From an uncultured Eubacteriales bacterium (GTDB lineage: Bacteria; Acidobacteriota; Aminicenantia; Aminicenantales; Saccharicenantaceae): DNA of 60,855 nucleotides. The stretch lies in the NCBI GenBank assembly GCA_964458655.1, contig CAYWJT010000007.1:1-60855 (forward strand), in the 5' to 3' direction. The notes beneath the pieces are model-generated. The model was not told the DNA's origin and searched no databases. It saw only the letters and a list, made by a program, of their open reading frames with translations. The translations under genes were made by a program, and so were the position numbers. Shown here piece by piece: positions 6,273-57,963 of the stretch (positions are counted from its first letter, which is position 1; each line of letters opens with the position of its first letter).

Positions 6273-8840
6273 GTGGCAAGATCGCTCGTCATCGTGGAAT
6301 CGCCGGCCAAGGCCAAGACCATAAACCACTATCTCGGCTCGGGCTACGTCGTCAAAGCCTCGATGGGCCACGTCTGCGACCTGCCCCAAAAGAAGCTCGG
6401 CGTCGACATCAAGAAGGACTTCGAGCCGACCTACCAGGTCATACCGGAGAAGAAGAAGCTCGTCGTCGAGCTGAAGAAGGCGGCCCGCGAGGCCGAACGG
6501 GTCATCCTGGCGGCCGACCCGGACCGCGAGGGCGAAGCCATCTGCTGGCACCTGAGCCAGCTCATCAAGGACGACAACAGCAACGTCTTCCGGGCCGTTT
6601 TCCACGAGGTGACGCGCGACGCCGTGCAGGCGGCCTTCGAAAAGCCGGGCTCGCTCGACAAGAACCTAATCGACGCCCAACAGACACGCCGCATCCTCGA
6701 CCGCCTGGTCGGCTACCTGATCAGCCCGCTGCTCTGGAAGAAGATCGGCAAGGGCCTGAGCGCCGGCCGCGTCCAGTCGGTGGCCCTGCGCCTGATCTGC
6801 GAGCGCGAGAAGGAGATCAAGGCCTTCAAGCCCGAGGAGTACTGGACGCTTACGGCCCTGCTCCGGGCCCAGAACCCTCCCGAGTTCAAGGCCGGGCTGG
6901 CCAAGGTCGACGGCAAGAAGGTCAGGCTGAAGAACGAGGCCCAGGCCCGGGAGGCCCAGGCCGACTGCGAGAAGGCGGCCTTCGTCCTGAAGAAGGTCAC
7001 GGTCAGAGAAAAGCGCAAGACGCCGGCCCCGCCGTTCATAACGAGCACCCTCCAGCAGGAGGCCTTCCGCATCCTGCATTACCCTGTTAAGAAGACGATG
7101 AGCGTCGCCCAGCGCCTGTACGAGGGCCTGAACGTGGGCGAGGCCGGCCAGACCGGTCTCATCACCTACATGCGCACCGACTCGATCCGGGTCTCGGAGC
7201 AGGCGGCGGCCGCGGCCCGCAAGTATATCGAGCAGGCCTTTTCGCCGGCTTACGTTCCGGCCAAGCCGCACGTGTTCAAGAACCCGAAAAAATCGCAGGA
7301 CGCCCACGAGGCCATCCGACCGACGCGGCTCGACCTGCCCCCGGAGAAGATCAAGTCCTACCTGAAGAAGGACGAGTACGACCTTTACCGGCTGGTCTGG
7401 AACCGCTTCCTGGCTTCCCAGATGGCGCCGGCGCTGGTCGAAGAAACGGAGTTCGAGATACTGGCATCGAGGCGTCCGCAAGCGGGCGCCGCGGCGGCGC
7501 CCGGCGCCGCCCTGATCGTTGAAGCGGGCGCGAAAATCGCCGCCAAGAAGCCGGTCGAGTACCTGTTCAAGGCCAAGGGCGAGGTCGTCAAGTTCGACGG
7601 CTTCCTGGCGGTCTTCCCCTCGAACGGCAACGACAAGGAGCTCCTGCCGAAGGCTTCGGAGGGCGAGGAGCTCAGGCTCGTCGGCCTCGACACCAAGCAG
7701 AATTTCACCCAGCCGCCCCCGCGCTACACCGAAGGCACGCTGGTCAAGGAGCTCGAGTCGCGCGGCATCGGCCGGCCGAGCACGTACGCGCCCATCATCT
7801 CGACCCTTCAGGACAGGACGTACGTCGTCAAGGAGAAGGGCAAGTTCCGGCCCACCGACCTGGGCATGTACGTCACTAACTTCCTTATCAAGCACTTCGA
7901 GAAGCTGATGGACTACGAGTTCACGGCCAGGATGGAGGAGGAGCTCGACCAGGTGGAGGAGGGCGGCCGTGGCTGGGTCGAGAGCCTGCGCGAGTTCTAC
8001 GGCCTGCTCGAGAAGTATCTCAAGGGCGGCCACGAGAGCGAGAGCATTACGCGCACCGGCATACCCATAGAGGAGAAGTGCCCCAAGTGCGGCCGCGGCC
8101 TGGTCATCAAGAGCGGACGGTTCGGCCGTTTCAAGTCCTGCTCCGGCTACCCGGAATGCGATTATCGGGAGAGCCTGGTCAAGAAGGAAGTCAAGGTCCT
8201 CGAGGAGAAGTGCCCTAAGTGCGGTTCGCCGCTCGTCCAGAGGTTCGGAAGGTACGGCGCCTTTGTGGCCTGCTCCAACTACCCGGCGTGCGAATACATC
8301 AAGAAGGAGAACTCGGACACGGGCGTGGCCTGCCCGCTCGGCTGCGGCGGCAAGGTCATGCGGCGGAAGACTCGGCGCGGGAAGTTCTTCTACGGGTGCA
8401 GCAGGTATCCCGAGTGCAAGTTCGCTTCCTGGGACGAGCCGGTCGTCGCGCCCTGCCCGTCGTGCGGGGCGCCGGTCCTCTACAGGAAAGTGCCGGCCAA
8501 GGGCGCGCCTTGCCTTTACTGCAAGAACGAGAAGTGCGGCTGGAAGGAAAAGGCCGGGGACGCCGGGAAGGGGAGCGGACCGGAAAAGGGCGCGACGCCG
8601 GAGAAATCCGGCGCGCCCGGAAAGGAAACGGGGAGCAGCGGGGACGCGGGCAAGGCGTTGGAGAAAAGCAAACCGGCCGAACCGGGAAAAGAGTTCGAGA
8701 AAAGCCAGGCGGATGACCCGGAAAAGGGTGGGCTGGCTGAAAGAACAGGCGAGTCGCCGAAAGAACCGGGAACGACGCCGAACGAACGAGGAGAGCCCGG
8801 CGGAGTCGGTGAGCCGGCCGACGCGGGGAAAAAGGGATAG
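6273..8840 (+). CDS. topA: DNA topoisomerase I with four C4 zinc-ribbon repeats and a low-complexity tail
   Basis: LVIVESPAKAKTI TOPRIM, DPDREGE, SAGRVQS, ITYMRTDS active-site Tyr, AHEAIRPT. Confidence 0.97.
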   Translation: MARSLVIVESPAKAKTINHYLGSGYVVKASMGHVCDLPQKKLGVDIKKDFEPTYQVIPEKKKLVVELKKAAREAERVILAADPDREGEAICWHLSQLIKDDNSNVFRAVFHEVTRDAVQAAFEKPGSLDKNLIDAQQTRRILDRLVGYLISPLLWKKIGKGLSAGRVQSVALRLICEREKEIKAFKPEEYWTLTALLRAQNPPEFKAGLAKVDGKKVRLKNEAQAREAQADCEKAAFVLKKVTVREKRKTPAPPFITSTLQQEAFRILHYPVKKTMSVAQRLYEGLNVGEAGQTGLITYMRTDSIRVSEQAAAAARKYIEQAFSPAYVPAKPHVFKNPKKSQDAHEAIRPTRLDLPPEKIKSYLKKDEYDLYRLVWNRFLASQMAPALVEETEFEILASRRPQAGAAAAPGAALIVEAGAKIAAKKPVEYLFKAKGEVVKFDGFLAVFPSNGNDKELLPKASEGEELRLVGLDTKQNFTQPPPRYTEGTLVKELESRGIGRPSTYAPIISTLQDRTYVVKEKGKFRPTDLGMYVTNFLIKHFEKLMDYEFTARMEEELDQVEEGGRGWVESLREFYGLLEKYLKGGHESESITRTGIPIEEKCPKCGRGLVIKSGRFGRFKSCSGYPECDYRESLVKKEVKVLEEKCPKCGSPLVQRFGRYGAFVACSNYPACEYIKKENSDTGVACPLGCGGKVMRRKTRRGKFFYGCSRYPECKFASWDEPVVAPCPSCGAPVLYRKVPAKGAPCLYCKNEKCGWKEKAGDAGKGSGPEKGATPEKSGAPGKETGSSGDAGKALEKSKPAEPGKEFEKSQADDPEKGGLAERTGESPKEPGTTPNERGEPGGVGEPADAGKKG

Positions 8841-9063
8841 CAGGACCGCAAGATTACGGTCGCGGGACGAAGGCGGTTCACGGCTCGGGACAAAGGCGTG
8901 AACGGAGCGCGGGGGCCGGGAAGCGCTTCGCGGCGGGCCCGCCGAGGGGATTAGACAGCGGGGCGGGCTGGACTGGTCTAAATGCAAACGTAACTGCGAG
9001 CTGCCCCGGTCCGTGACGCGACCTGGGCTGTCGTGGTACATTAGCCACGGACTGCCGAATAAT

Positions 9064-9969
9064 ATGAAGCGGGAAATAACCGAGTTCCTCCAGTACCTCA
9101 GGCACGAGAAGAACGCCTCGGTCCACACGATCGCGGCCTACGGCCGCGACTTGAAGGAGCTTGAAACCTACTTCAAGGAGGCCGGGGTCCGTTGGGACCG
9201 GGCCGACAACGTCAGCCTGCGCGGCTTCCTGGCCGGCCTGTACGAGAAGAAGCGCAAGAAATCCTCCATCGGGCGCAAGCTGGCCGCGGTCCGCTCCTTC
9301 TATGATTTCTGCGTCAGAAGGAAGCGACTGGCCGAGAACCCGGCCGGGCTGCTGGCGACTCCGCGCCAGGACAAGCGCGTGCCGTCGTTCCTTTCGGAGG
9401 ACGAGGTTTCGACCCTGCTCGACCTGCCGAAGGGCGGGAAGCCGGCCGACCTCAGGGACAGGGCGATGCTCGAGCTTCTCTACGCGAGCGGGATACGGGT
9501 GGGCGAGCTCGTCGGGCTGAACTTGGGCGACGTCCATTTGAGCGATCGATTCCTCAGGGTCAGAGGCAAGGGCAAGAAGGAGCGGGTGGTGCCGTTCGGG
9601 AGCAAGGCGGTCGATGCGATGGCGGACTACTTGAAGGCGAGGCCGATGCTGGCAGCCGCGGGGGAAAAGGCGGAGGCGGTCGAGGGCGTCGACCAGGCGG
9701 TGTTCCTGAACCGCGGCGGCGGACGGCTCACGGCGCGGTCGGTGCAGCGGATGGTCGCGAAATACATAAAGCGTACGGCCGTGGGGCGGAAGATAAGTCC
9801 GCATTCCCTGAGGCATTCCTTCGCCTCGCATCTGCTCGGAAGGGGCGCCGACCTCAGGGTCATCCAGGAATTGCTCGGGCACTCCAGCCTGGCGACGACG
9901 CAGAAGTACACGCACGTCGACTTGCGGCAACTCCTCGAGACCTACAAGAAAAGCCACCCCCGTTCTTAA
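9064..9969 (+). CDS. xerC: Tyrosine recombinase XerC/XerD
   Basis: ELLYASGIRVGEL, GKGKKERVVP, SPHSLRHSFASHLL, LLGHSSLATTQKYTH; in the dprA-topA-xer context. Confidence 0.9.
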   Translation: MKREITEFLQYLRHEKNASVHTIAAYGRDLKELETYFKEAGVRWDRADNVSLRGFLAGLYEKKRKKSSIGRKLAAVRSFYDFCVRRKRLAENPAGLLATPRQDKRVPSFLSEDEVSTLLDLPKGGKPADLRDRAMLELLYASGIRVGELVGLNLGDVHLSDRFLRVRGKGKKERVVPFGSKAVDAMADYLKARPMLAAAGEKAEAVEGVDQAVFLNRGGGRLTARSVQRMVAKYIKRTAVGRKISPHSLRHSFASHLLGRGADLRVIQELLGHSSLATTQKYTHVDLRQLLETYKKSHPRS

Positions 9970-51468: not shown

Positions 51469-52404
51469 ATGCCTGCCGACCAGCCCAGCCTGACGGACGC
51501 CGGACCTTCGATCACCCTGGCGCGGAATAAACGGCTGCTGAGGGCCGCGCTCGGGATAACGGCCTTCATGATGCTGGCCGAAGCGGCCGGCGGAATCTTG
51601 AGCGGCAGCCTGGCCCTTCTCGCCGACGCCGGCCACATGCTCACGGACGTCGCCGGCCTCGGCCTCAGCCTCATCGCCTTTCATTTCAGCTCGCTTCCCC
51701 GGACTCCCGCGCACACCTTCGGCTGGCGCCGCTTCGAGATCTTCGCCGCCTTGTTGAACGGCCTCGCACTCTGGGCCATCGCCGGAGCGGTCGGCTATCA
51801 GGCGGTTGTCAGGCTGCGCTCGCCTCAGGAGATAAAGAGCGGCATGATGATGGTCATCGCTGGCCTGGGCCTGCTCTCCAACGTCGCGGCGGGCGCCGTA
51901 CTCCTCCACGGAGAAAGGAGGAACCTGAACATAAAGGGTGCGCTGCTTCATATAGCGGCCGACGCGCTCGGGAGCGTCGGGGTCCTGGCCGCCGCCGTGC
52001 TCATCAAGCTCACCGGCTCGACGGCCTGGGACCCTATAGTGAGCATCGGCGTGTGCGTGTTGATCCTGCTGAGCGCCGGCCGCCTGATCCGGGACTCGGT
52101 CCACGTGTTCATGGAAGGCGCGCCCGCGGGCACGGATGTGGAAGGGATCCAAAGAGCGCTGAACGCGGTCCCCGGCGTCGTCGACGTCCACGACCTGCAC
52201 GTCTGGACCATCACTTCCGGGTTTGTCTCGCTCAGCGCCCATCTGAAGGTCGCAGCCGGAGAGGACGTCGGGCGAGTCCTCCGAGAAGCCCACGAGGCCG
52301 CCTCCCGGCATTTCAACATCGTCCACACCACCTTCCAGCTGGAGGAGGCCGAAGCGCCGGGCTGCGAGACGGGCTCCTGCCCGGAGAACGCAAAGCCCTG
52401 TTAG
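51469..52404 (+). CDS. Cation diffusion facilitator (CzcD/ZitB-like)
   Basis: SLALLADAGHMLTD, TFGWRRFE, LHIAAD, DLHVWTITSG, HTTFQLE. Confidence 0.9.
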   Translation: MPADQPSLTDAGPSITLARNKRLLRAALGITAFMMLAEAAGGILSGSLALLADAGHMLTDVAGLGLSLIAFHFSSLPRTPAHTFGWRRFEIFAALLNGLALWAIAGAVGYQAVVRLRSPQEIKSGMMMVIAGLGLLSNVAAGAVLLHGERRNLNIKGALLHIAADALGSVGVLAAAVLIKLTGSTAWDPIVSIGVCVLILLSAGRLIRDSVHVFMEGAPAGTDVEGIQRALNAVPGVVDVHDLHVWTITSGFVSLSAHLKVAAGEDVGRVLREAHEAASRHFNIVHTTFQLEEAEAPGCETGSCPENAKPC

Positions 52405-52461
52405 CCGGCCTTGCCGCCCGTCTTTTTGTTGCCGGGAGAGAGGCGACCCCGCCTTTCTTTA

Positions 52462-53040
52462 TCAATACTGCATGGCCTGCAAGGTGGCGGCGACGAAGCG
52501 ATAGGCGGTTAGCTGCTTGTCGTCCAGCCGTGCCTTTTGACCGGTCATGAGGACCGAGAAGCAATACCAGTATTTCGAACCGGGGTTTATGTAGGTGATG
52601 TAGTCGTAGAATTCGCCTTCCACGAAGACCAGTTTGGCGAAACACCGGTACAACATATTGCCCACGTTCAGGCCCTCATACTGGACCTGAGGGGATTTTT
52701 TCCGGTATTCTTCCAGGTCATGTTCCAGGTCCGCCGCGGTGTTTTCATCCGCTTTTCTGTTCAGCCGGACCCGTATGATAGGGTTCGTGGATTTCCAGCC
52801 GGCCCCCCTGGGGTAGAAAATGAGGTCGGCGTGATAATAAGGGGCATGGCGGGTGTCGCCCTGCCAGCCTTCGGGAATGCAAACCCCGAACTGGAAATTC
52901 CTGCCCGTGATGATGATGACCTCCGGTTTCTTTCTTTGGGCCGGAGAAACGGCGGCCAGACCCGTTGAAAGAGCTGCGGTCATCAGGGCCGAATATCCCA
53001 AGGTCCTTGTCAGTCTCTTGCCCAGGCAACAGTTCATCAC
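52462..53040 (-). CDS. Hypothetical exported protein
   Basis: Signal-like N-terminus; ggagg RBS; globular domain with PEGW motif (PsbP/DcrB-like fold is a guess). Confidence 0.6.
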   Translation of the reverse strand: MMNCCLGKRLTRTLGYSALMTAALSTGLAAVSPAQRKKPEVIIITGRNFQFGVCIPEGWQGDTRHAPYYHADLIFYPRGAGWKSTNPIIRVRLNRKADENTAADLEHDLEEYRKKSPQVQYEGLNVGNMLYRCFAKLVFVEGEFYDYITYINPGSKYWYCFSVLMTGQKARLDDKQLTAYRFVAATLQAMQY

Positions 53041-53344
53041 TTGCCTCCCAGCCGGTCATTGCGCCCTCTTGATGCGCCAAGCATGAACTTGCTCTCCGCC
53101 CCTGCTAGGTCAGGCGACCCCTCATAAAACCGGCGCTGGGGCCTGGCCCGCCCGACATAGAAGCCTACGCCCTGATCCTGTTGTCCGGGATTATAAGCCG
53201 CTCGTTTTTCGCTGTCAATTCCGCGTTCATCATAGGCGCCGGAGGGCGCCGGGACGCCGGCGGCTCTCCTGCTTGAAAGGATGCGGCGCCCCGGTCAGGA
53301 TGCGGGCTCTCGAGGCGCCGGCCGACGCAGCCGGCCCGTACATG

Positions 53345-53373
53345 TTGAATTGAGCGCCGGGAATATCTATAAT
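53345..53373 (+). promoter_or_regulatory. Sigma70 promoter of tRNA-Asp
   Basis: TTGAAT-17 nt-TATAAT. Confidence 0.65.
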
Positions 53374-53389
53374 AATCGAGCCCGAACGC

Positions 53390-53466
53390 GGGGTCGTAGT
53401 TCAGCTGGTTAGAACGCCGGCCTGTCACGCCGGAGGTCGCGAGTTCGAGTCTCGTCGGCCCCGCCA
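53390..53466 (+). tRNA. tRNA-Asp (GTC), CCA encoded
   Basis: GGGGTCG/CGGCCCC acceptor, ccggc-ctGTCac-gccgg anticodon arm, GTTCGAGTC T-loop, GCCA end. Confidence 0.97.
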
Positions 53467-53711
53467 CCTTTATTCCCTGATTTTCCCCATCTGAGTCAGC
53501 GTTTTCCATTGTTTTTTGTTTAATCCCCAGTAGGCCAAGCTAAGCGAGTTTTAGCAAAATCTGTTACACCGACGTTATACAGCGAGAAGTCTGAATCATC
53601 GGCAGGATACTGGAAAAGGAGCTCTTCGTCTCGATTTCCATAAGGCATGAATTGACTTCGCAAGCGCGAAAGAAAGGGGATGCGAACTGAAGATTCGCGG
53701 CTCAGGGGGTA

Positions 53712-54503
53712 CTAGCCCCTTTTTAAGGAGGGATAAAAAACACCCAAAACGGTAAAAACGTCTTGAAATCTATGCAAGTTGCCTACGTATAAATAAACAT
53801 CTTTTGTAGTACTATCGACCATCATCATCCAGCGCTCCTTAATCTTACTCAGCAGTTCTCGTTCGTCTCGGTACTTCCCTCTCCATTTACGATAGGATTG
53901 GTGTATTTCCCAGTCTATTATGGAGAGCTTATGTCCCCCACAATCGGGTTCTGAGATGCATCTGAACTGGTAATAGAATTGGAATGGAATCTCTTCAACT
54001 GGCTCCTTTGGCCTGTCAAAGAGGCCGGGGCGAGCATAGGCCCTTTTTCTCTTATCCGAATCCTTAATCTGCCGCTTCTCTATCAGAAATGAGACGCCCT
54101 CAGGTTTAATGAGAGCCAAAGAAGTTTTGTGCTGTTTTTCTTCTTTGATAACTTGACACATGGACTTGACTGAGAGCTTCTGGATAATTGTCCTTCTTCT
54201 GTCCCAACCATCTTTGCGTGTGTCAATTTGCTCAATTATCCTGATTGAGTCAGGCTGAATACGAAAACTTTCCGGCCGCAAATCGTCCGTGGCCTTTGCA
54301 CAGTTCGCTTCAATCAGGCTATATTTCTTGAATCTCTTGTCGTTCTCAAGGTCCCTGAAAGGTATCGGATAAAGTCTGACCCAACTTCCCGTGGCGATAT
54401 CGACCCCGGCACAGCAAACAGTTTCTCCATAGTTGTAGCTGGGATTTGGATATGCTTTGACGGTAACGAAAATCTTCTTTGGTCGAAAATCTAGCCTTTT
54501 CAA
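53712..54503 (-). CDS. Conserved hypothetical protein with KAYP...ETVCCAG...WVRLYP motif (possible dual-OB nucleic-acid-binding protein)
   Basis: Open 263-codon frame from a TTG that overlaps the DUF488 stop (ATTTGA); AT-rich codon usage distinct from the host. Confidence 0.7.
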   Translation of the reverse strand: MKRLDFRPKKIFVTVKAYPNPSYNYGETVCCAGVDIATGSWVRLYPIPFRDLENDKRFKKYSLIEANCAKATDDLRPESFRIQPDSIRIIEQIDTRKDGWDRRRTIIQKLSVKSMCQVIKEEKQHKTSLALIKPEGVSFLIEKRQIKDSDKRKRAYARPGLFDRPKEPVEEIPFQFYYQFRCISEPDCGGHKLSIIDWEIHQSYRKWRGKYRDERELLSKIKERWMMMVDSTTKDVYLYVGNLHRFQDVFTVLGVFYPSLKRG

Positions 54504-54943
54504 ATGTGAACGATTCTTAATCCGTTCCCATCTTGCTCTTTTATTTTCATCGCGACGGCCGAGCGGTGACAATATTCCGGAATACGCTCGAAGCACATTA
54601 GGCAGTTGATGCCATCACGCACATACTCGTAGGCTTTTAAGATAGCCTCTGGATTATCATCAAGATACTTCATATATGACGAAAAGAACTTTTCATAATC
54701 ATGGTCATCCTTGAGTTGGCGACGCATATGGGAGGGGCTGCCGAGCGACTTGATGTGTACGTACTTAATGTCCGCGGACTCTGCCCGGCTCTTTAGCAGT
54801 GACTTTGAGAATCCCTTCTTTCTCGATATTGGTATTTCCCTTACATCTATGAGCCGGGTTATATTGAAGGTTTTAAGATAGGCTATAAATGTATTGATGT
54901 CTCGGCCTTCATAACCAACGGTATATAGCTCCAGACCATTCAT
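54500..54943 (-). CDS. DUF488 family protein
   Basis: LYTVGYEGR, LIDVREIPISRKKGFSK, IKYVH...LG, CLMCFE....CHRS motifs. Confidence 0.85.
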   Translation of the reverse strand: MNGLELYTVGYEGRDINTFIAYLKTFNITRLIDVREIPISRKKGFSKSLLKSRAESADIKYVHIKSLGSPSHMRRQLKDDHDYEKFFSSYMKYLDDNPEAILKAYEYVRDGINCLMCFERIPEYCHRSAVAMKIKEQDGNGLRIVHI

Positions 54944-55581
54944 CCTTTACATTATACTGCAGTCTGTTCGGCGAAAAGCAAGGGGAAAAATTCTTCCGCA
55001 TTAATGACTCTGGCAAGGCCTCTTGAGGCGCCGCTATCCACACCCTTTCAACCCGAGGAGAAATCTCGCCCATTGGTATATACTCAAGGGGCTAAGGCAC
55101 ATTTTTCATAGCCGATTTGCCGGATGTACATGTAAATAAGCTTCATGAGGGGATACCGAATCCCGCTGGTCTCACTAATGCTCGCCTGCTCCCTCCGGAA
55201 ATAGTCGTTTTTTTCCATCTAATGAAGCATGAAGGATGTGGCGCCGGCGAAGCTGACGGGTTTAAGCCGAGTCGGGTCTTGCAGACGTCTCCGTATGAGA
55301 CGACAGGTCGTCCAGGGCGCAGAGTTAGCACGGGAAGCCCTTAAAACGATCCCTGGGAAGGCGGACCGTTTTCTGGAGGCCTGAAACTCGAAAGTTCGTT
55401 CAAAGCTTTTGGCGGTTCGATTGACTAATATAATTGGAGGCGGAGCTGCTAAACATGGCCAGACGAGGAAGCGACGCTGGGGCTGGCTGTCCCCAGGCCG
55501 GTCGTTGACGCCTGCCGCGGCGTTGAGATAGAATAGAAAAAGGGAAGGGGCCATAGATTAACGGCTGAAAAGGAGGATCCC

Positions 55582-57363
55582 ATGCATCGTCTGATGCGCG
55601 CCCTGGCTTATTGTCTTCTGGCCGTGGCGGCCTTGTCGGGCCTCGGCCTCGTCACATCCTGCGTCGTCGCCACCGACTCCTTGTCGGGCAGGACCGGCAG
55701 CCTCAACATCCTGCTGACCGACGCTCCCGCCGACGACTGGCAGGAAGTTTCCGTCCTTCTCAAGTCCATCAGCCTTTACAATCGGGACAGCCGCGTCTGG
55801 CAGCAGGTCTGGGCGGCCGACCCGGCCAACGCGGAGTCGGGCAGGGTCAACCTGGTCGACCTGAGCGGCGTCGCGCTCATCCTGGCCCAGGCCACGATCC
55901 CCGAGGGCACATACAACCGGCTGAAGATGGTCATCAACACCAACCCGTCCACGATGAAGCTCGTCGACGACTCGGGCAACGTCATCGACCCGTCCCTGAT
56001 CCGGATCGTCAACTCCGTACCCCTGGGCGAGGTCCGCGTCGACCTCGACCCGGCCGTCACGGTCACGGCCGACGGGACCGCCAACCTGCAGGTCGATTTC
56101 GACCTGGCCCACCCGCTTTCGATCGTCAACCTGAACGGCGTCATCTGGCTGAACTTCCAGCTCCGGCATAAGCCTCTCCCGCACAAGCTCTTCACGCTCC
56201 AGTTCGCCCGCAGCATCGGGCAGATAACGGCGGCCGCGGCCGACGGCACGAATTTCACCATCAAAACGCTCAACGCGGCCGAGATCACGTTCAATGTCAA
56301 CTCCAACACCATCTATGTGGACGCCGACACCAGGCAGCCGGGCAGTTTCAGCGGCCTGGCGGCCCTGGCCGGCACGGGCTACGCCCTGGTGGCCTCCAAC
56401 ATGAACGCCGACGGCAGTCTCTTCGCCCGGCGCGTCTGGTACTCTGCTAGCGTGGATGCCCTGCCGCGCTTCACGCCCGAGGGCATCGTCAGGCGCGTCG
56501 GCGAGAACTGGATCCGGGTCATGAAGCAGAAGCCCCAGACCGTGGCGCCGGCCCGCTTCAGGTGCGACTGGAACGCCGAGACGATCTTCATCGACGAGAA
56601 CACGGCGTGGAAGTTCCGGGGCGATGTCCACATGGGCGCCGGCCTGGGCGTCCTCCAGTTCATCAAGCGCGGCTTCCGTGTGGAAGTCACGCTGGTCGAC
56701 CCGTCCGCCGCGATGAAAGTCGCGGCCGAGGTCAACGTCCTCTGGGCCCACGAAGAAGGCGCCATAACCGCCGTATCGGAAACAGGCATCACCATGGGCT
56801 GGTGGGGCCACGCGACCCATACCCTGCCGTACAGCGCGGTCGAGAACCATGGCTTCTCCTGGTGGTATTTCGGCCTGCCCTGGACGGCTTCCACGAACGT
56901 CCAGGACTTCATTGACACCGTCAACCAGGCCTTGAACGCCCGCCTCTGGGTTTTCGCCATGGCCGGGCTCTACTGGGATGAGCTCGGCGGCGGCTGGGCG
57001 GTCGAACATCTCGTCCTCGCGCCGGAGAAGCTGGCCGAGCCGACCGCGATCACGACCGGCTACAGCGCCGATACCGGGACCATGGACGTGACGACCTACT
57101 GCTGGTGGGACGCCGCGACGCCGCAGTTGATGACCATCCATCTGGACGCGACCGGCGACTTCCAGACGGTCGTGGGCTCGTTCAGTTTCAACACGACGAC
57201 CAAGGTCCTGTCGGTGACGTTCCCGGTCAACCCGAGCGATTGGCCGGCCCTGCTCACCCCGGCGCTGCCCAGGGTCCAGATCTGGGTCAGGCCGGTCAAG
57301 GGCAGCGACGGCACCTTCACCTGGCACGCTTACACGGTCCTGGCCTACCAGCTCACGAGCTGA
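55582..57363 (+). CDS. DUF4382-domain secreted/lipoprotein with repeated beta-rich modules
   Basis: aggagg RBS; signal ending LVTSC; GSLNILLTDAP, PEGTYN, LQVDFDL are typical of DUF4382. Confidence 0.75.
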   Translation: MHRLMRALAYCLLAVAALSGLGLVTSCVVATDSLSGRTGSLNILLTDAPADDWQEVSVLLKSISLYNRDSRVWQQVWAADPANAESGRVNLVDLSGVALILAQATIPEGTYNRLKMVINTNPSTMKLVDDSGNVIDPSLIRIVNSVPLGEVRVDLDPAVTVTADGTANLQVDFDLAHPLSIVNLNGVIWLNFQLRHKPLPHKLFTLQFARSIGQITAAAADGTNFTIKTLNAAEITFNVNSNTIYVDADTRQPGSFSGLAALAGTGYALVASNMNADGSLFARRVWYSASVDALPRFTPEGIVRRVGENWIRVMKQKPQTVAPARFRCDWNAETIFIDENTAWKFRGDVHMGAGLGVLQFIKRGFRVEVTLVDPSAAMKVAAEVNVLWAHEEGAITAVSETGITMGWWGHATHTLPYSAVENHGFSWWYFGLPWTASTNVQDFIDTVNQALNARLWVFAMAGLYWDELGGGWAVEHLVLAPEKLAEPTAITTGYSADTGTMDVTTYCWWDAATPQLMTIHLDATGDFQTVVGSFSFNTTTKVLSVTFPVNPSDWPALLTPALPRVQIWVRPVKGSDGTFTWHAYTVLAYQLTS

Positions 57364-57609: not shown

Positions 57610-57963
57610 GGGGGCGAACTGGTTTCGACGGAGGTAATGAGACAGAAGTGGCATGCCGAGGTCCCACCCACCTCGCTAAACCGGTGGAAAACAATTAACT
57701 GCAGAACCTCTAGCAGTAGCGGCCTGATAGAAAGGCACGCCGTTCCCGGGACCCTCTCCCGCGGGGTGTCGGGAGCGTCGACCAAGCGGGATAGCGAGCC
57801 GGCTTCGCCCTGAAGCCGGGGAGCGAAGCTCAACTTCGGGGCTGGTTTCGCGGAGCTCTTCCTCTTCGAGCACTGCGGAATGAGACAGTGGAAGAGGATA
57901 AGCATGTAGTCACTTCCTGTTGAATGCCTTCGGACGCGGGTTCGATTCCCGCCGCCTCCACCA
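57610..57963 (+). ncRNA. ssrA: tmRNA; tag reading frame AEPLAVAA
   Basis: 5' GGGGGCGAACTGGTTTCGAC; 3' GGGTTCGATTCCCGCCGCCTCCACCA; TAACT followed by GCA GAA CCT CTA GCA GTA GCG GCC TGA TAG at 57701-57730. Confidence 0.95.

What the first reader, a model, noticed from the sequence alone, without database searches (positions are those of the whole stretch)
53467..54943. Low-GC islet at tRNA-Asp encoding a coupled DUF488 + Cys-motif hypothetical pair: candidate novel defence or nucleic-acid repair module
Seen: GC falls from about 65% to about 33-40% (spot counts) immediately after the tRNA CCA. There are two minus-strand genes coupled by an ATTTGA stop/start overlap: a DUF488 protein with an intact C-x-E...C-H-R motif, and a 263-aa protein with KAYPxPS..ETVCCAG...WVRLYP and later DWE and GN motifs. 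No integrase is present. Established: tRNA 3' ends are integration hotspots enriched for defence genes. From memory, DUF488 has been linked to the rhodanese/phosphatase-like fold and to neighbourhoods with DNA ADP-ribosylation (DarTG-type) and dual-OB proteins; the partner's CxAG...WxRxxP pattern resembles those dual-OB proteins. Inference: a stand-alone two-gene system, here without DarT/DarG, that binds and processes modified or damaged nucleic acid, possibly against phage. This is the best candidate for an undescribed system in the window.
Basis: partly seen in the sequence, partly recalled or inferred. Interest (0 to 1): 0.72.

Follow-up and report, generated by a model that had tools for sequence, protein, structure and literature searches.

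The report
Mobile DUF488 plus dual-OB gene pair
A small foreign DNA patch next to a tRNA gene carries two tightly coupled genes, a cysteine phosphatase-like enzyme and a DNA-binding-like partner. The pair already appears in a public catalogue as an untested candidate anti-phage system, so it is real and conserved but not new.

Summary
Two intact minus-strand genes sit there: DUF488 (54500-54943, 147 aa) and a 263-aa partner (53712-54503). The partner's TTG start overlaps the DUF488 TGA stop.

Both proteins match the PADLOC candidate system PDC-M19 (E 3e-40 and 2e-63). PDC-M19 was proposed by guilt-by-embedding in RM/BREX/DISARM loci, and I found no report that it has been tested. The partner is a peripheral member of Pfam DuOB, and its model shows two OB-like barrels resembling tandem-OB DNA binders.

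New here:
- The two genes are adjacent in 78 of 78 informative genomes across many phyla, and convergent in Actinobacteria.
- They co-evolve (r = 0.74) and are under purifying selection (dN/dS 0.11-0.20).
- They are almost always lower in GC than the host.
- They occur on plasmids, and beside the immunity repressor of temperate Gordonia phages.
- In the closest relative, the same tRNA-Asp site holds the pair plus a type I RM system. The window keeps only a 37-codon remnant of the next gene.

Most likely function: a mobile two-protein module that acts on nucleic acids, probably in defence. The mechanism is inferred.

The parts
53390..53466 (+). tRNA-Asp (GTC) with encoded CCA. It marks the left edge of the low-GC islet. 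The closest relative uses the same site.
   Evidence: ARAGORN; Rfam tRNA 70 bits. L015 has tRNA-Asp 256 nt from the pair and is collinear with window 53367-55199 at 88.6% identity.
53467..53711 (-). Non-coding stretch of 245 nt between the tRNA and the stop codon of the dual-OB gene. It travels with the gene pair.
   Evidence: No ORF and no Rfam family. It is conserved together with the pair in L015, L016 and L001, where similarity starts at 53367, 53605 and 53507.
53712..54503 (-). Dual-OB (DuOB-like) protein, 263 aa, TTG start at 54503-54501. It corresponds to PADLOC PDC-M19B.
   Evidence: PADLOC PDLC04508 E 2e-63, covering 4-262 of 269 positions. Pfam DuOB 22.1-22.5 bits, below the cutoff of 27. 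777 homologues, all about 260 aa. AlphaFold model pLDDT 89.7 with two beta-barrels. Foldseek hits to LEF-3, HIN-200, RPA, CST and TEBP. Invariant at depth: C30, R43, P46, R76, W100, W198. At least 90% conserved: E27, R50, D74, E78, R103, C182, H191, D197, E199. dN/dS 0.13-0.16.
54500..54943 (-). DUF488 protein, 147 aa. Its TGA stop overlaps the TTG start of the dual-OB gene. It corresponds to PADLOC PDC-M19A, but only to the C-terminal half of the longer profiles.
   Evidence: Pfam PF04343 E 2.3e-27, 96.5 bits. PADLOC PDLC04505 E 3e-40, aligned to profile positions 150-294 of 294. Invariant residues: T8, G10, Y11, E12, D33, R35, S40, R41, K42, H63, R74, C114, C117, E119, C125, H126, R127. Model pLDDT 90.2. 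Weak fold matches to PTP-type phosphatases, tetrapyrrole methylases and RapZ-C. dN/dS 0.11-0.20.
54944..55086 (-). Upstream leader of the operon, where its promoter presumably lies. It is conserved with the pair in relatives.
   Evidence: Nucleotide similarity to L015, L016 and L001 extends to 55199, 55086 and 54988. The sigma-70 consensus scan found no promoter on the minus strand here.
55087..55197 (-). Remnant of a gene. It encodes the last 37 residues of the 223-aa protein that lies upstream of DUF488 in the relative L015.
   Evidence: tblastn of L015:8749-9420 residues 187-223 against the window: 81% identity, E 2e-15. Similarity to L015 stops at 55199.
55198..55581 (.). Unassigned stretch of intermediate GC (0.50-0.61 in 200-nt windows) between the deletion junction and the DUF4382 gene. 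It is the right edge of the islet.
   Evidence: Composition profile. The only ORFs here are overlapping ones of at most 111 aa, none assigned. No similarity to L015, L016 or L001. A promoter-like site at 55505-55534 on the + strand probably serves the DUF4382 gene.

Best explanation
The islet is the trimmed remainder of a horizontally acquired island at tRNA-Asp. Its surviving cargo is a self-contained two-gene module of the PADLOC PDC-M19 type.

Shown:
- The two genes are intact and translationally coupled.
- They are under purifying selection, always found together, and co-evolving.
- They move between genomes, plasmids and temperate phages.

Inferred:
- The two proteins work as a complex.
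- The dual-OB protein binds nucleic acid. By fold analogy this is single-stranded DNA or DNA ends and replication intermediates. A Cys/His cluster (C30, C182, C188, H191) may stabilise it by binding zinc.
- This binding gives the complex its target recognition.
- DUF488 is the enzyme. It belongs to the rhodanese-phosphatase superfamily and carries an invariant C-x-E...C-H-R centre. It would use a cysteine to remove or transfer a phosphate-bearing group on a sugar at a nucleic-acid end, or on a nucleotide or ADP-ribose-like adduct.
- The biological role is most likely protection of the carrier (cell, plasmid or prophage) against invading phage or other foreign DNA.
For: Identity:
- PADLOC PDC-M19A E 3e-40 and PDC-M19B E 2e-63 on adjacent genes.
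- PDC-M19 was defined from genes embedded in BREX, DISARM and type I RM systems.

Functional linkage:
- DUF488 lies directly upstream in 74 loci and convergent downstream in 4 actinobacterial loci, so 78 of 78 informative loci.
- The same convergent pair occurs on Rhizobium pRL8, a Streptomyces plasmid and Gordonia phages.
- Where a partner start codon could be assigned (57 of 69 co-directional loci), spacing ran from -6 to +22 nt apart from one -50 outlier; 12 loci share the 4-nt overlap.
- Pairwise identity matrices of the two proteins correlate, r = 0.74, Mantel p = 0.001.
- dN/dS is 0.11-0.20.

Fold:
- The dual-OB model has pLDDT 89.7. It matches the baculovirus ssDNA-binding protein LEF-3, HIN-200 DNA sensors, RPA, CST and TEBP.
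- The DUF488 model has pLDDT 90.2. The invariant Cys/His/Arg residues sit at a strand-loop-helix junction. Weak matches are to PTP-fold phosphatases and RapZ-C.
- The general chemistry of the superfamily and of the sister clade DUF4326 is described in PMC9503650.

Mobility and conflict context:
- The pair is lower in GC than its flanks by a mean of 9.8 points (52 of 67 loci by more than 5 points).
- It is found in 333 species genomes across Aminicenantes, Planctomycetota, Omnitrophota, Nitrospirota, Firmicutes, Actinobacteria, CPR and Archaea.
- It is on 24 plasmids.
- In seven records of six Gordonia temperate phages, the dual-OB gene overlaps the end of the immunity repressor gene.
- Neighbours include type I RM (L015, L181-184), Mrr, PIN, type ISP RM, HNH, PemK and integrases.
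- At the same tRNA-Asp site, L015 carries the pair plus hsdRSM. There the islet is 88.6% identical while the flanking core genes are 75% identical.
Against: - No experiment on this pair or on any DUF488 enzyme was found.
- The two nearest neighbours on each side in 75 genomes are mostly housekeeping genes. Defence genes are a minority and no family recurs in more than three loci. One instance sits beside rpsF-ssb-rpsR.
- Both proteins are unusually conserved for defence genes, at 50-60% identity across phyla.
- Fold matches are weak. TM-scores are 0.3-0.44 for the dual-OB protein, and the best E-value is 6.5e-3 for DUF488.
- The window's DUF488 covers only the C-terminal half of the best PADLOC M19A profile.
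Confidence: 0.5

Rival explanations
1. A toxin-antitoxin or addiction module built like DarTG. The dual-OB protein would be a DNA-directed toxin that blocks or modifies single-stranded DNA. DUF488 would be an enzymatic antitoxin that reverses or prevents the damage. The pair would stabilise mobile elements and could give abortive infection as a side effect.
For: - It has the two small genes, upstream-first order and 4-nt overlap typical of type II/IV TA operons.
- It occurs on conjugative plasmids, prophages and islands.
- In L178-L180, DUF488 is intact but the dual-OB gene is reduced to a 24-codon remnant. That is the pattern expected when a toxin is lost and its antitoxin survives.
Against: - In Actinobacteria, Rhizobium and Gordonia phages the genes are convergent, so they cannot be one autoregulated transcript.
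- Neither protein has a DNA-binding regulator domain.
- Both proteins are highly conserved across phyla.
- There are no toxicity data.
- No orphan dual-OB gene without DUF488 was seen, but also no case that demands neutralisation.
Confidence: 0.2
2. An accessory DNA-repair or counter-defence module carried by mobile elements. It would recognise single-stranded DNA or DNA ends bearing a blocking group (3'-phosphate, or an ADP-ribose- or sugar-phosphate adduct placed by a host or rival system) and remove it. This would protect the element's own DNA rather than attack invaders.
For: - The pair is encoded by plasmids and phages themselves.
- The sister clade DUF4326 is proposed to process phosphate on ADP-ribose products in viruses (PMC9503650).
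- One instance lies next to ssb-dnaB.
- The high conservation fits an enzyme with a fixed chemical substrate.
Against: - In Gordonia phages the pair sits with the immunity repressor in the lysogeny region, not among early lytic genes.
- It recurs embedded in or beside RM systems on chromosomes.
- It is rare and patchy: 333 of 185,579 species genomes by the pattern scan.
Confidence: 0.2
3. A chance juxtaposition or decaying leftovers of an old island, with no current function in this organism.
For: - The islet has been trimmed, with a 37-codon remnant of the next gene and no integrase.
- The consensus scan found no promoter upstream.
Against: - Both ORFs are full length and retain every invariant residue.
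- dN/dS against three relatives is 0.11-0.20.
- The pairing holds in 78 of 78 loci.
Confidence: 0.03

Closest known systems
PADLOC phage defence candidate PDC-M19 (Payne et al., bioRxiv 10.1101/2024.01.29.577857)
   Same: - Both proteins match the M19A and M19B profiles strongly and are adjacent.
- Like the archetype, relatives lie in or beside RM systems.
- It is a two-gene cassette with DUF488 first (supplement entry FAM_02799>>FAM_02993).
   Different: - The window's DUF488 aligns only to positions 150-294 of the 294-position M19A profile, and to 91-234 of the 234-position one. The archetype profiles therefore carry an N-terminal part that is absent here.
- PDC-M19 is itself only a prediction. 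No test was found.
DUF488 / DuOB families of the rhodanese-phosphatase superfamily analysis (Burroughs and Aravind 2023, NAR Genom Bioinform lqad029; Pfam PF04343, PF22751, PF22557)
   Same: - DUF488 is a clear PF04343 member.
- Several close homologues and the Gordonia phage copy also pass PF22751 (DUF488-N3a, the 'active' subclade).
- 28 of 54 partner homologues match DuOB at E <= 1e-3.
- The predicted fold has two OB-like barrels.
   Different: - The window's own proteins fall below the curated cutoffs of PF22751 (23 against 27 bits) and PF22557 (22 against 27 bits).
- The paper is not in the held library. What it predicts for this pairing, including any DarTG link, rests on memory only.
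DarTG (DNA ADP-ribosyltransferase toxin with macrodomain antitoxin)
   Same: Both are two-gene mobile modules in which one partner addresses single-stranded DNA and the other is an enzyme acting on a sugar-phosphate group. Both are found in defence contexts.
   Different: - There is no DarT or macrodomain protein in the islet, nor as a recurrent neighbour.
- No ADP-ribosyltransferase fold was found.
- The resemblance is in logic only.
Prophage-encoded defence cassettes next to the immunity repressor (for example Gordonia phage CarolAnn 43/44, PMC6426606)
   Same: In Gordonia CZ1 phages (Nymphadora, Eviarto, BatStarr, TimTam, Herod), the dual-OB gene follows and overlaps the immunity repressor gene. 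That is the position where CarolAnn's defence genes are co-expressed with the repressor.
   Different: CarolAnn gp43/gp44 are RexAB-like (a membrane protein plus DUF4747) and unrelated in sequence. The similarity is one of position only.
Tandem-OB nucleic-acid binders (baculovirus LEF-3, HIN-200 domains of AIM2/IFI16/p202/p204, RPA, CST, TEBP)
   Same: These are the best structural matches of the partner's model (Foldseek probability 0.9-1.0, E down to 5e-5).
   Different: - TM-scores are only 0.3-0.44 and sequence identity about 10%.
- The partner has its own invariant polar and Cys/His residues, which suggest more than passive binding.
- A profile search of PDB sequences found nothing.

Membership tests
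PADLOC PDC-M19 | A protein matching a PDC-M19A profile | tested here: met
   PDLC04505 E 3e-40 and PDLC04504 E 6.7e-25, but only the C-terminal 145 positions of each profile are covered.
PADLOC PDC-M19 | A protein matching a PDC-M19B profile, encoded next to the M19A gene | tested here: met
   PDLC04508 E 2e-63, covering 4-262 of 269 positions. The genes overlap by 4 nt.
PADLOC PDC-M19 | Anti-phage activity | not testable with these tools
   It is a candidate only. No published test was found.
Pfam DUF488 (PF04343) | Score above the gathering threshold, with the conserved C-x-E...C-H-R centre | tested here: met
   96.5 bits against a cutoff of 22.2. C117, E119, C125, H126 and R127 are invariant in 53 sequences.
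Pfam DUF488-N3a (PF22751) | Score above the gathering threshold of 27 bits | tested here: inconclusive
   The window protein scores 23 bits, below threshold. About a dozen close homologues carry the precomputed hit. The Gordonia phage copy scores 29.5 bits.
Pfam DuOB (PF22557) | Score above the gathering threshold of 27 bits | tested here: not met
   22.1-22.5 bits for the window protein. 28 of 54 family members match at E <= 1e-3, with a best E of 1.9e-7.
Pfam DuOB (PF22557) | Two OB-fold barrels in one chain | tested here: met
   The model (pLDDT 89.7) has two beta-barrel halves joined by helices. Its best fold matches are tandem-OB proteins.
DarTG | DarT ADP-ribosyltransferase and DarG macrodomain genes | tested here: not met
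   The islet holds only the two genes, and neither matches DarT or DarG in Pfam or PADLOC. Neither appears among recurrent neighbours.
tRNA-integrated genomic island | Position at the 3' end of a tRNA gene with deviant composition | tested here: met
   The islet starts at the base after the CCA. GC is 0.44-0.47 against 0.64. The same site is occupied in L015. Other relatives have different cargo after tRNA-Asp.
tRNA-integrated genomic island | Integrase, and a direct repeat of the tRNA 3' end at the far boundary | tested here: not met
   No ORF over 111 aa lies in 54944-55581. No repeat of the tRNA end was found. A truncated gene remnant indicates later deletion.
Type II/IV toxin-antitoxin system | One product is toxic and the other neutralises it | not testable with these tools
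   The evidence is indirect only: the operon layout, and orphan DUF488 with a deleted partner in L178-180.

The most novel reading that the evidence does not exclude
The DUF488/dual-OB pair is an active immune or conflict system that works through chemistry not yet seen in defence. A cysteine-dependent rhodanese-phosphatase-type enzyme would be guided by a tandem-OB sensor to single-stranded DNA or DNA ends of an invader. There it would remove or transfer a phosphate-linked group, so that replication or packaging fails. Alternatively, the dual-OB protein is itself a DNA-directed toxin that DUF488 holds in check.
Probability: 0.3. Interest if true: 0.7.

Novelty: new member of a known kind. Interest (0 to 1): 0.4.

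Why it matters
DUF488 is a large family, with members in many bacterial genomes (from memory, including E. coli YeaO). This compact, obligately paired version may be the easiest route to its chemistry.

If PDC-M19 is shown to protect against phages, it would add a defence system with an unexplored enzyme class.

The copy beside the immunity repressor of Gordonia CZ1 phages gives a ready experimental system: a culturable host and a large sequenced phage collection.

For this window, the practical result is an annotation. The islet is a trimmed tRNA-Asp defence-type island carrying a PDC-M19-type pair, not a new kind of system.

Tried and rejected
- **att repeats.** I looked for a direct repeat of the tRNA-Asp 3' end to define an att site. 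None was found, only short chance repeats.
- **RNA families.** An Rfam scan of the islet for an RNA partner (antitoxin RNA, retron RNA) found only the tRNA.
- **Promoter and terminator scan.** It found no convincing promoter upstream of DUF488. Promoters in this phylum may not fit the sigma-70 consensus.
- **Solved structures.** Sequence and profile searches of the PDB found no relative for either protein.
- **NCBIfam.** No model matched.
- **PHROGs.** Only unknown-function families matched.
- **Burroughs and Aravind 2023.** I tried to read it by DOI and by PMC id. It is not held, so its predictions are cited from memory only.
- **Empty site.** I searched metagenomes with the neighbouring CDF transporter for a close relative with an empty site. 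The nearest relatives are only 66% identical. They keep HtpX-CDF-tRNA-Asp synteny but carry different genes after the tRNA. This supports a variable hotspot but does not give a clean empty site.
- **CarolAnn 43/44.** I considered that these Gordonia phage defence genes might be homologues. They are unrelated RexAB-like proteins.
- **A conserved third gene.** None recurs among 231 immediate neighbours.
- **Fusions to effector domains.** The top 150 of 2577 cluster representatives are all stand-alone proteins of about 250-310 aa, or shorter fragments.
Full report
**1. Observation**

ARAGORN and Rfam place tRNA-Asp(GTC) at 53390-53466 on the + strand, with an encoded CCA at 53464-53466. GC in 200-nt windows is 0.61-0.65 before the tRNA. 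It is 0.50 across the tRNA's end and 0.40-0.48 from 53500 to 55000. It then rises through 0.50-0.56 back to 0.61-0.66 by about 55550.

The gene pair is 0.439 GC against 0.640 for the window. The bin 54001-55000 (0.45) is the lowest 1-kb bin. The next lowest, 0.53, is the adjoining bin 53001-54000, which holds the start of the islet. No bin elsewhere is below 0.58.

Two minus-strand ORFs fill the islet:
- 54500-54943 encodes a 147-aa DUF488 protein.
- 53712-54596 is the partner ORF. Read from the TTG at 54503-54501, it gives a 263-aa protein.

On the minus strand the junction reads CAC ATT TGA. The TTG start shares two bases with the TGA stop, so the genes overlap by 4 nt.

The TTG start is supported in three ways:
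- 777 homologues are about 255-265 aa long.
- The alignment begins at that residue.
- The closest relatives keep the same G/ATTTGA junction.

No ORF longer than 111 aa lies between 54944 and 55581, so there is no integrase. No repeat of the tRNA end marks an att site.

**2. What the genes are**

*DUF488.* It scores 96.5 bits against Pfam PF04343, whose cutoff is 22.2.

*The partner.* It gives only a sub-threshold hit to Pfam DuOB (22 bits against a cutoff of 27). However, 28 of 54 family members match DuOB at E <= 1e-3.

*PADLOC.* Against PADLOC-DB both proteins hit one candidate system: PDC-M19A (E 3e-40) and PDC-M19B (E 2e-63). PDC systems are 145 untested 'phage defence candidates'. Payne et al. 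derived them from genes embedded inside BREX, DISARM and type I RM loci and added them to PADLOC. Their supplement lists the cassette FAM_02799>>FAM_02993 as PDC-M19. The phrase 'PDC-M19' occurs in no held full text. [quoted passage not shown]

*One difference from the archetype.* The window's DUF488 aligns only to the C-terminal 145 positions of the M19A profiles. The same is true for the phage family phrog_14939. I could not identify the missing N-terminal part.

*Other libraries.* NCBIfam has no model for either protein.

**3. Structure**

*Dual-OB partner.* The model, built from a 54-sequence alignment, has pLDDT 89.7. It shows two beta-barrel halves joined by helices. Foldseek against the PDB and BFVD returns tandem-OB nucleic-acid binders:
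- the baculovirus ssDNA-binding protein LEF-3 (E 5e-5);
- HIN-200 domains of p202, p204, AIM2 and IFI16;
- RPA, CST and the Oxytricha telomere end-binding protein.

TM-scores are only 0.3-0.44.

In an alignment reaching 29-48% identity, the invariant residues are C30, R43, P46, R76, W100 and W198. E27, R50, D74, E78, R103, C182, H191, D197 and E199 are conserved in at least 90% of sequences. Within the closer family, C116 and C188 are also invariant.

The C182-x5-C188-x2-H191 hairpin together with C30 looks like a zinc site. The cluster of charged residues suggests more than passive binding. I could not inspect coordinates, so both points are inferences.

*DUF488.* The model has pLDDT 90.2 and is an alpha/beta fold. 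Invariant C114 and C117 lie on the strand at 113-117. E119 and C125 lie in the loop that follows it, and H126 and R127 start the next helix. That is the position of the catalytic loop in cysteine phosphatases.

Fold matches are weak (best E 6.5e-3). They are the expected ones: archaeal and plant PTP-fold phosphatases, PRL-3, tetrapyrrole methylases and RapZ-C.

PMC9503650 describes this superfamily as metal-independent enzymes that take terminal phosphates from sugars or proteins onto an active-site cysteine. It proposes that the sister clade DUF4326 processes phosphates on ADP-ribose products in virus-host conflicts.

Neither family has a solved relative detectable by sequence.

**4. The pair is one unit**

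A pattern scan of one genome per species found 333 genomes encoding the partner. The 80 best loci span Aminicenantes, Planctomycetota, Omnitrophota, Nitrospirota, Firmicutes, Zixibacteria, CPR, Actinobacteria and Archaea.

- In 74 loci, DUF488 lies directly upstream on the same strand.
- In two loci the contig ends at the partner gene.
- In the four actinobacterial loci, DUF488 lies directly downstream in convergent orientation.
- That makes 78 of 78 informative loci.

The convergent form recurs on Rhizobium plasmid pRL8, a Streptomyces plasmid and Gordonia phages. Linkage that survives a change of gene order is strong evidence of a functional tie.

Where my heuristic could assign a partner start codon (57 of 69 co-directional loci), spacing ran from -6 to +22 nt apart from one -50 outlier, and 12 loci share the 4-nt overlap. 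The pairwise identity matrices of the two proteins correlate, r = 0.74, Mantel p = 0.001. dN/dS against three relatives is 0.11-0.20 for both genes.

A profile search of 1.84 billion cluster representatives finds 2577 at E <= 1e-3. The top 150 are all stand-alone proteins of about 250-310 aa or shorter fragments, with no fusions. Among 231 immediate neighbours, no third gene recurs.

**5. Mobility and context**

*Composition and tRNA linkage.* The pair is lower in GC than its flanks in nearly every genome. The mean difference is -9.8 points, and 52 of 67 loci differ by more than 5 points. A tRNA lies within 300 nt in six loci, at Asp, Arg, Glu, Ala, Gly and Ser genes.

*The closest relative.* L015 is an Aminicenantes MAG. 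It has the pair at the same tRNA-Asp site. The islet is 88.6% identical in nucleotides, while the flanking HtpX/CDF genes are 75% identical. In L015 the low-GC island continues for at least 9 kb and carries a type I RM system (hsdR, hsdS, hsdM) and a NucS-like protein.

The window retains the last 37 codons (81% identity) of the 223-aa gene that lies upstream of DUF488 in L015. Similarity ends at 55199. The window's islet is therefore a trimmed version of a larger defence-type island.

*The same module elsewhere.* The same 1.5-kb module, at 82-84% nucleotide identity, sits in other contexts:
- L001, with Mrr, PIN and Hypoth_Ymh genes;
- L016 and L181-184, with type I RM and Mrr.

More distant relatives of the pair have other neighbours:
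- an integrase and excisionase-like HTH genes at tRNA-Arg;
- HNH;
- PemK/RHH;
- a type ISP RM enzyme.

*The counter-evidence.* The census of the two nearest genes on each side in 75 genomes is dominated by housekeeping families. It shows only scattered type III and type I RM, AbiE, DruA, AIPR, caspase and resolvase hits. One instance sits between a sulfatase-maturing enzyme gene and rpsF-ssb-rpsR. Defence association is real but modest.

*Plasmids and phages.* The partner is found on 24 plasmids, including conjugative Rhizobium and Sulfolobus plasmids. It is also in seven records of six temperate Gordonia CZ1 phages.

In phage Eviarto, gene 43 (dual-OB) begins at the last base of immunity repressor gene 44. 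Gene 42, convergent with it, is a DUF488 that passes both PF04343 and the DUF488-N3a threshold. This is the region where the unrelated CarolAnn 43/44 defence genes are co-expressed with the repressor in lysogens. The analogy is positional only.

*After tRNA-Asp in other relatives.* In relatives that keep HtpX-CDF-tRNA-Asp synteny, different genes follow the tRNA.

**6. Mechanism**

Shown:
- a coupled, conserved, co-evolving, mobile gene pair;
- a tandem-OB-like fold for the partner;
- a cysteine-phosphatase-like centre in DUF488.

Inferred:
- The two proteins form a complex.
- The dual-OB protein supplies recognition of single-stranded DNA or DNA ends.
- DUF488 performs cysteine-based removal or transfer of a phosphate-linked group on a nucleic-acid end or a nucleotide adduct.
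- The role is protection of the carrier against invading DNA.

I give this explanation 0.5.

A DarTG-style toxin-antitoxin reading gets 0.2. The operon layout favours it. So do L178-L180, where DUF488 is intact but the partner is cut down to a 24-codon remnant. The convergent arrangements and the high conservation count against it.

A repair or counter-defence role for mobile elements also gets 0.2.

Non-function is essentially excluded by the selection data.

**7. Novelty and verdict**

The finding is a correct and careful observation of a real two-gene module. It is not an undescribed system. It is a new, short-DUF488 member of the catalogued but untested candidate PDC-M19, built from domain families already in Pfam.

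What this analysis adds:
- the universality and order-independence of the pairing;
- the co-evolution and selection figures;
- the conserved Cys/His and charged residues of the partner;
- the history of the islet at tRNA-Asp;
- the copy next to the immunity repressor of Gordonia phages, which offers a practical test.

Interest is 0.4. The function of DUF488 is a genuine open question, but a specialist would recognise this pair.

Noticed in passing
window 52462-53040 (minus strand), within 52353-53366: A 192-aa ORF with a signal- or lipoprotein-like N-terminus lies between the CDF transporter gene and tRNA-Asp. Its GC is lower than the surroundings (0.52-0.60). About 1 kb here has no counterpart in the relative L015, where CDF and the tRNA are about 130 nt apart. 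There are no Pfam or NCBIfam hits. It may be a second small insertion on the other side of the tRNA.
   Followed up: partly
window 55087-55197 (minus strand): A 37-codon C-terminal remnant (81% identity) of a 223-aa hypothetical gene that is intact in L015 (8749-9420). It marks a deletion junction at about 55199.
   Followed up: yes
L178, L179, L180 (DUF488 at 8001-8444 in L178 and L179; remnant at 8477-8548): DUF488 is intact here (the protein is carried on at least 9 contigs), but the dual-OB gene is reduced to a 24-codon C-terminal remnant. This is a natural orphan DUF488. It bears on whether either partner is toxic alone.
   Followed up: partly
L175 (Gordonia phage Eviarto MH479912, genes 42-44); also Nymphadora, BatStarr, TimTam, Herod: Temperate CZ1 Gordonia phages carry the dual-OB gene overlapping the end of the immunity repressor gene, with a convergent DUF488 gene next to it. 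The integrase lies about 1 kb away. Both genes are annotated as hypothetical.
   Followed up: partly
L015 1355-8320: At the same tRNA-Asp site, the closest relative carries a complete type I RM system (HsdR 978 aa, HsdS 436 aa, HsdM 515 aa) and a 377-aa protein with a weak NucS C-terminal domain hit.
   Followed up: yes
window 57610-57963: A tmRNA gene (tag peptide AEPLAVAA) lies about 2 kb from the islet. tmRNA genes are another classic integration site, but the composition after it looks native (GC 0.62-0.65).
   Followed up: no
window 55582-57363: A 593-aa protein with DUF4382 and DUF5666 domains and a signal-like N-terminus borders the islet on the right. A promoter-like site lies at 55505-55534.
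   Followed up: no
PADLOC profiles PDLC04505 and PDLC04504; phrog_14939: The profiles that best match this DUF488 are about twice its length, and the match covers only their C-terminal half. Many catalogued relatives must therefore carry an extra N-terminal domain. A ParB-CTPase-DUF488 fusion is reported in bioRxiv 10.1101/2025.10.10.680097, but I did not establish that it is the same domain.
   Followed up: no
L181-L184 (partner called as 228 aa at 8555-9241): Automatic gene calls truncate the dual-OB protein to 228 aa because they miss the TTG start that overlaps the DUF488 stop. tblastn shows the full 263 codons from 8450.
   Followed up: yes
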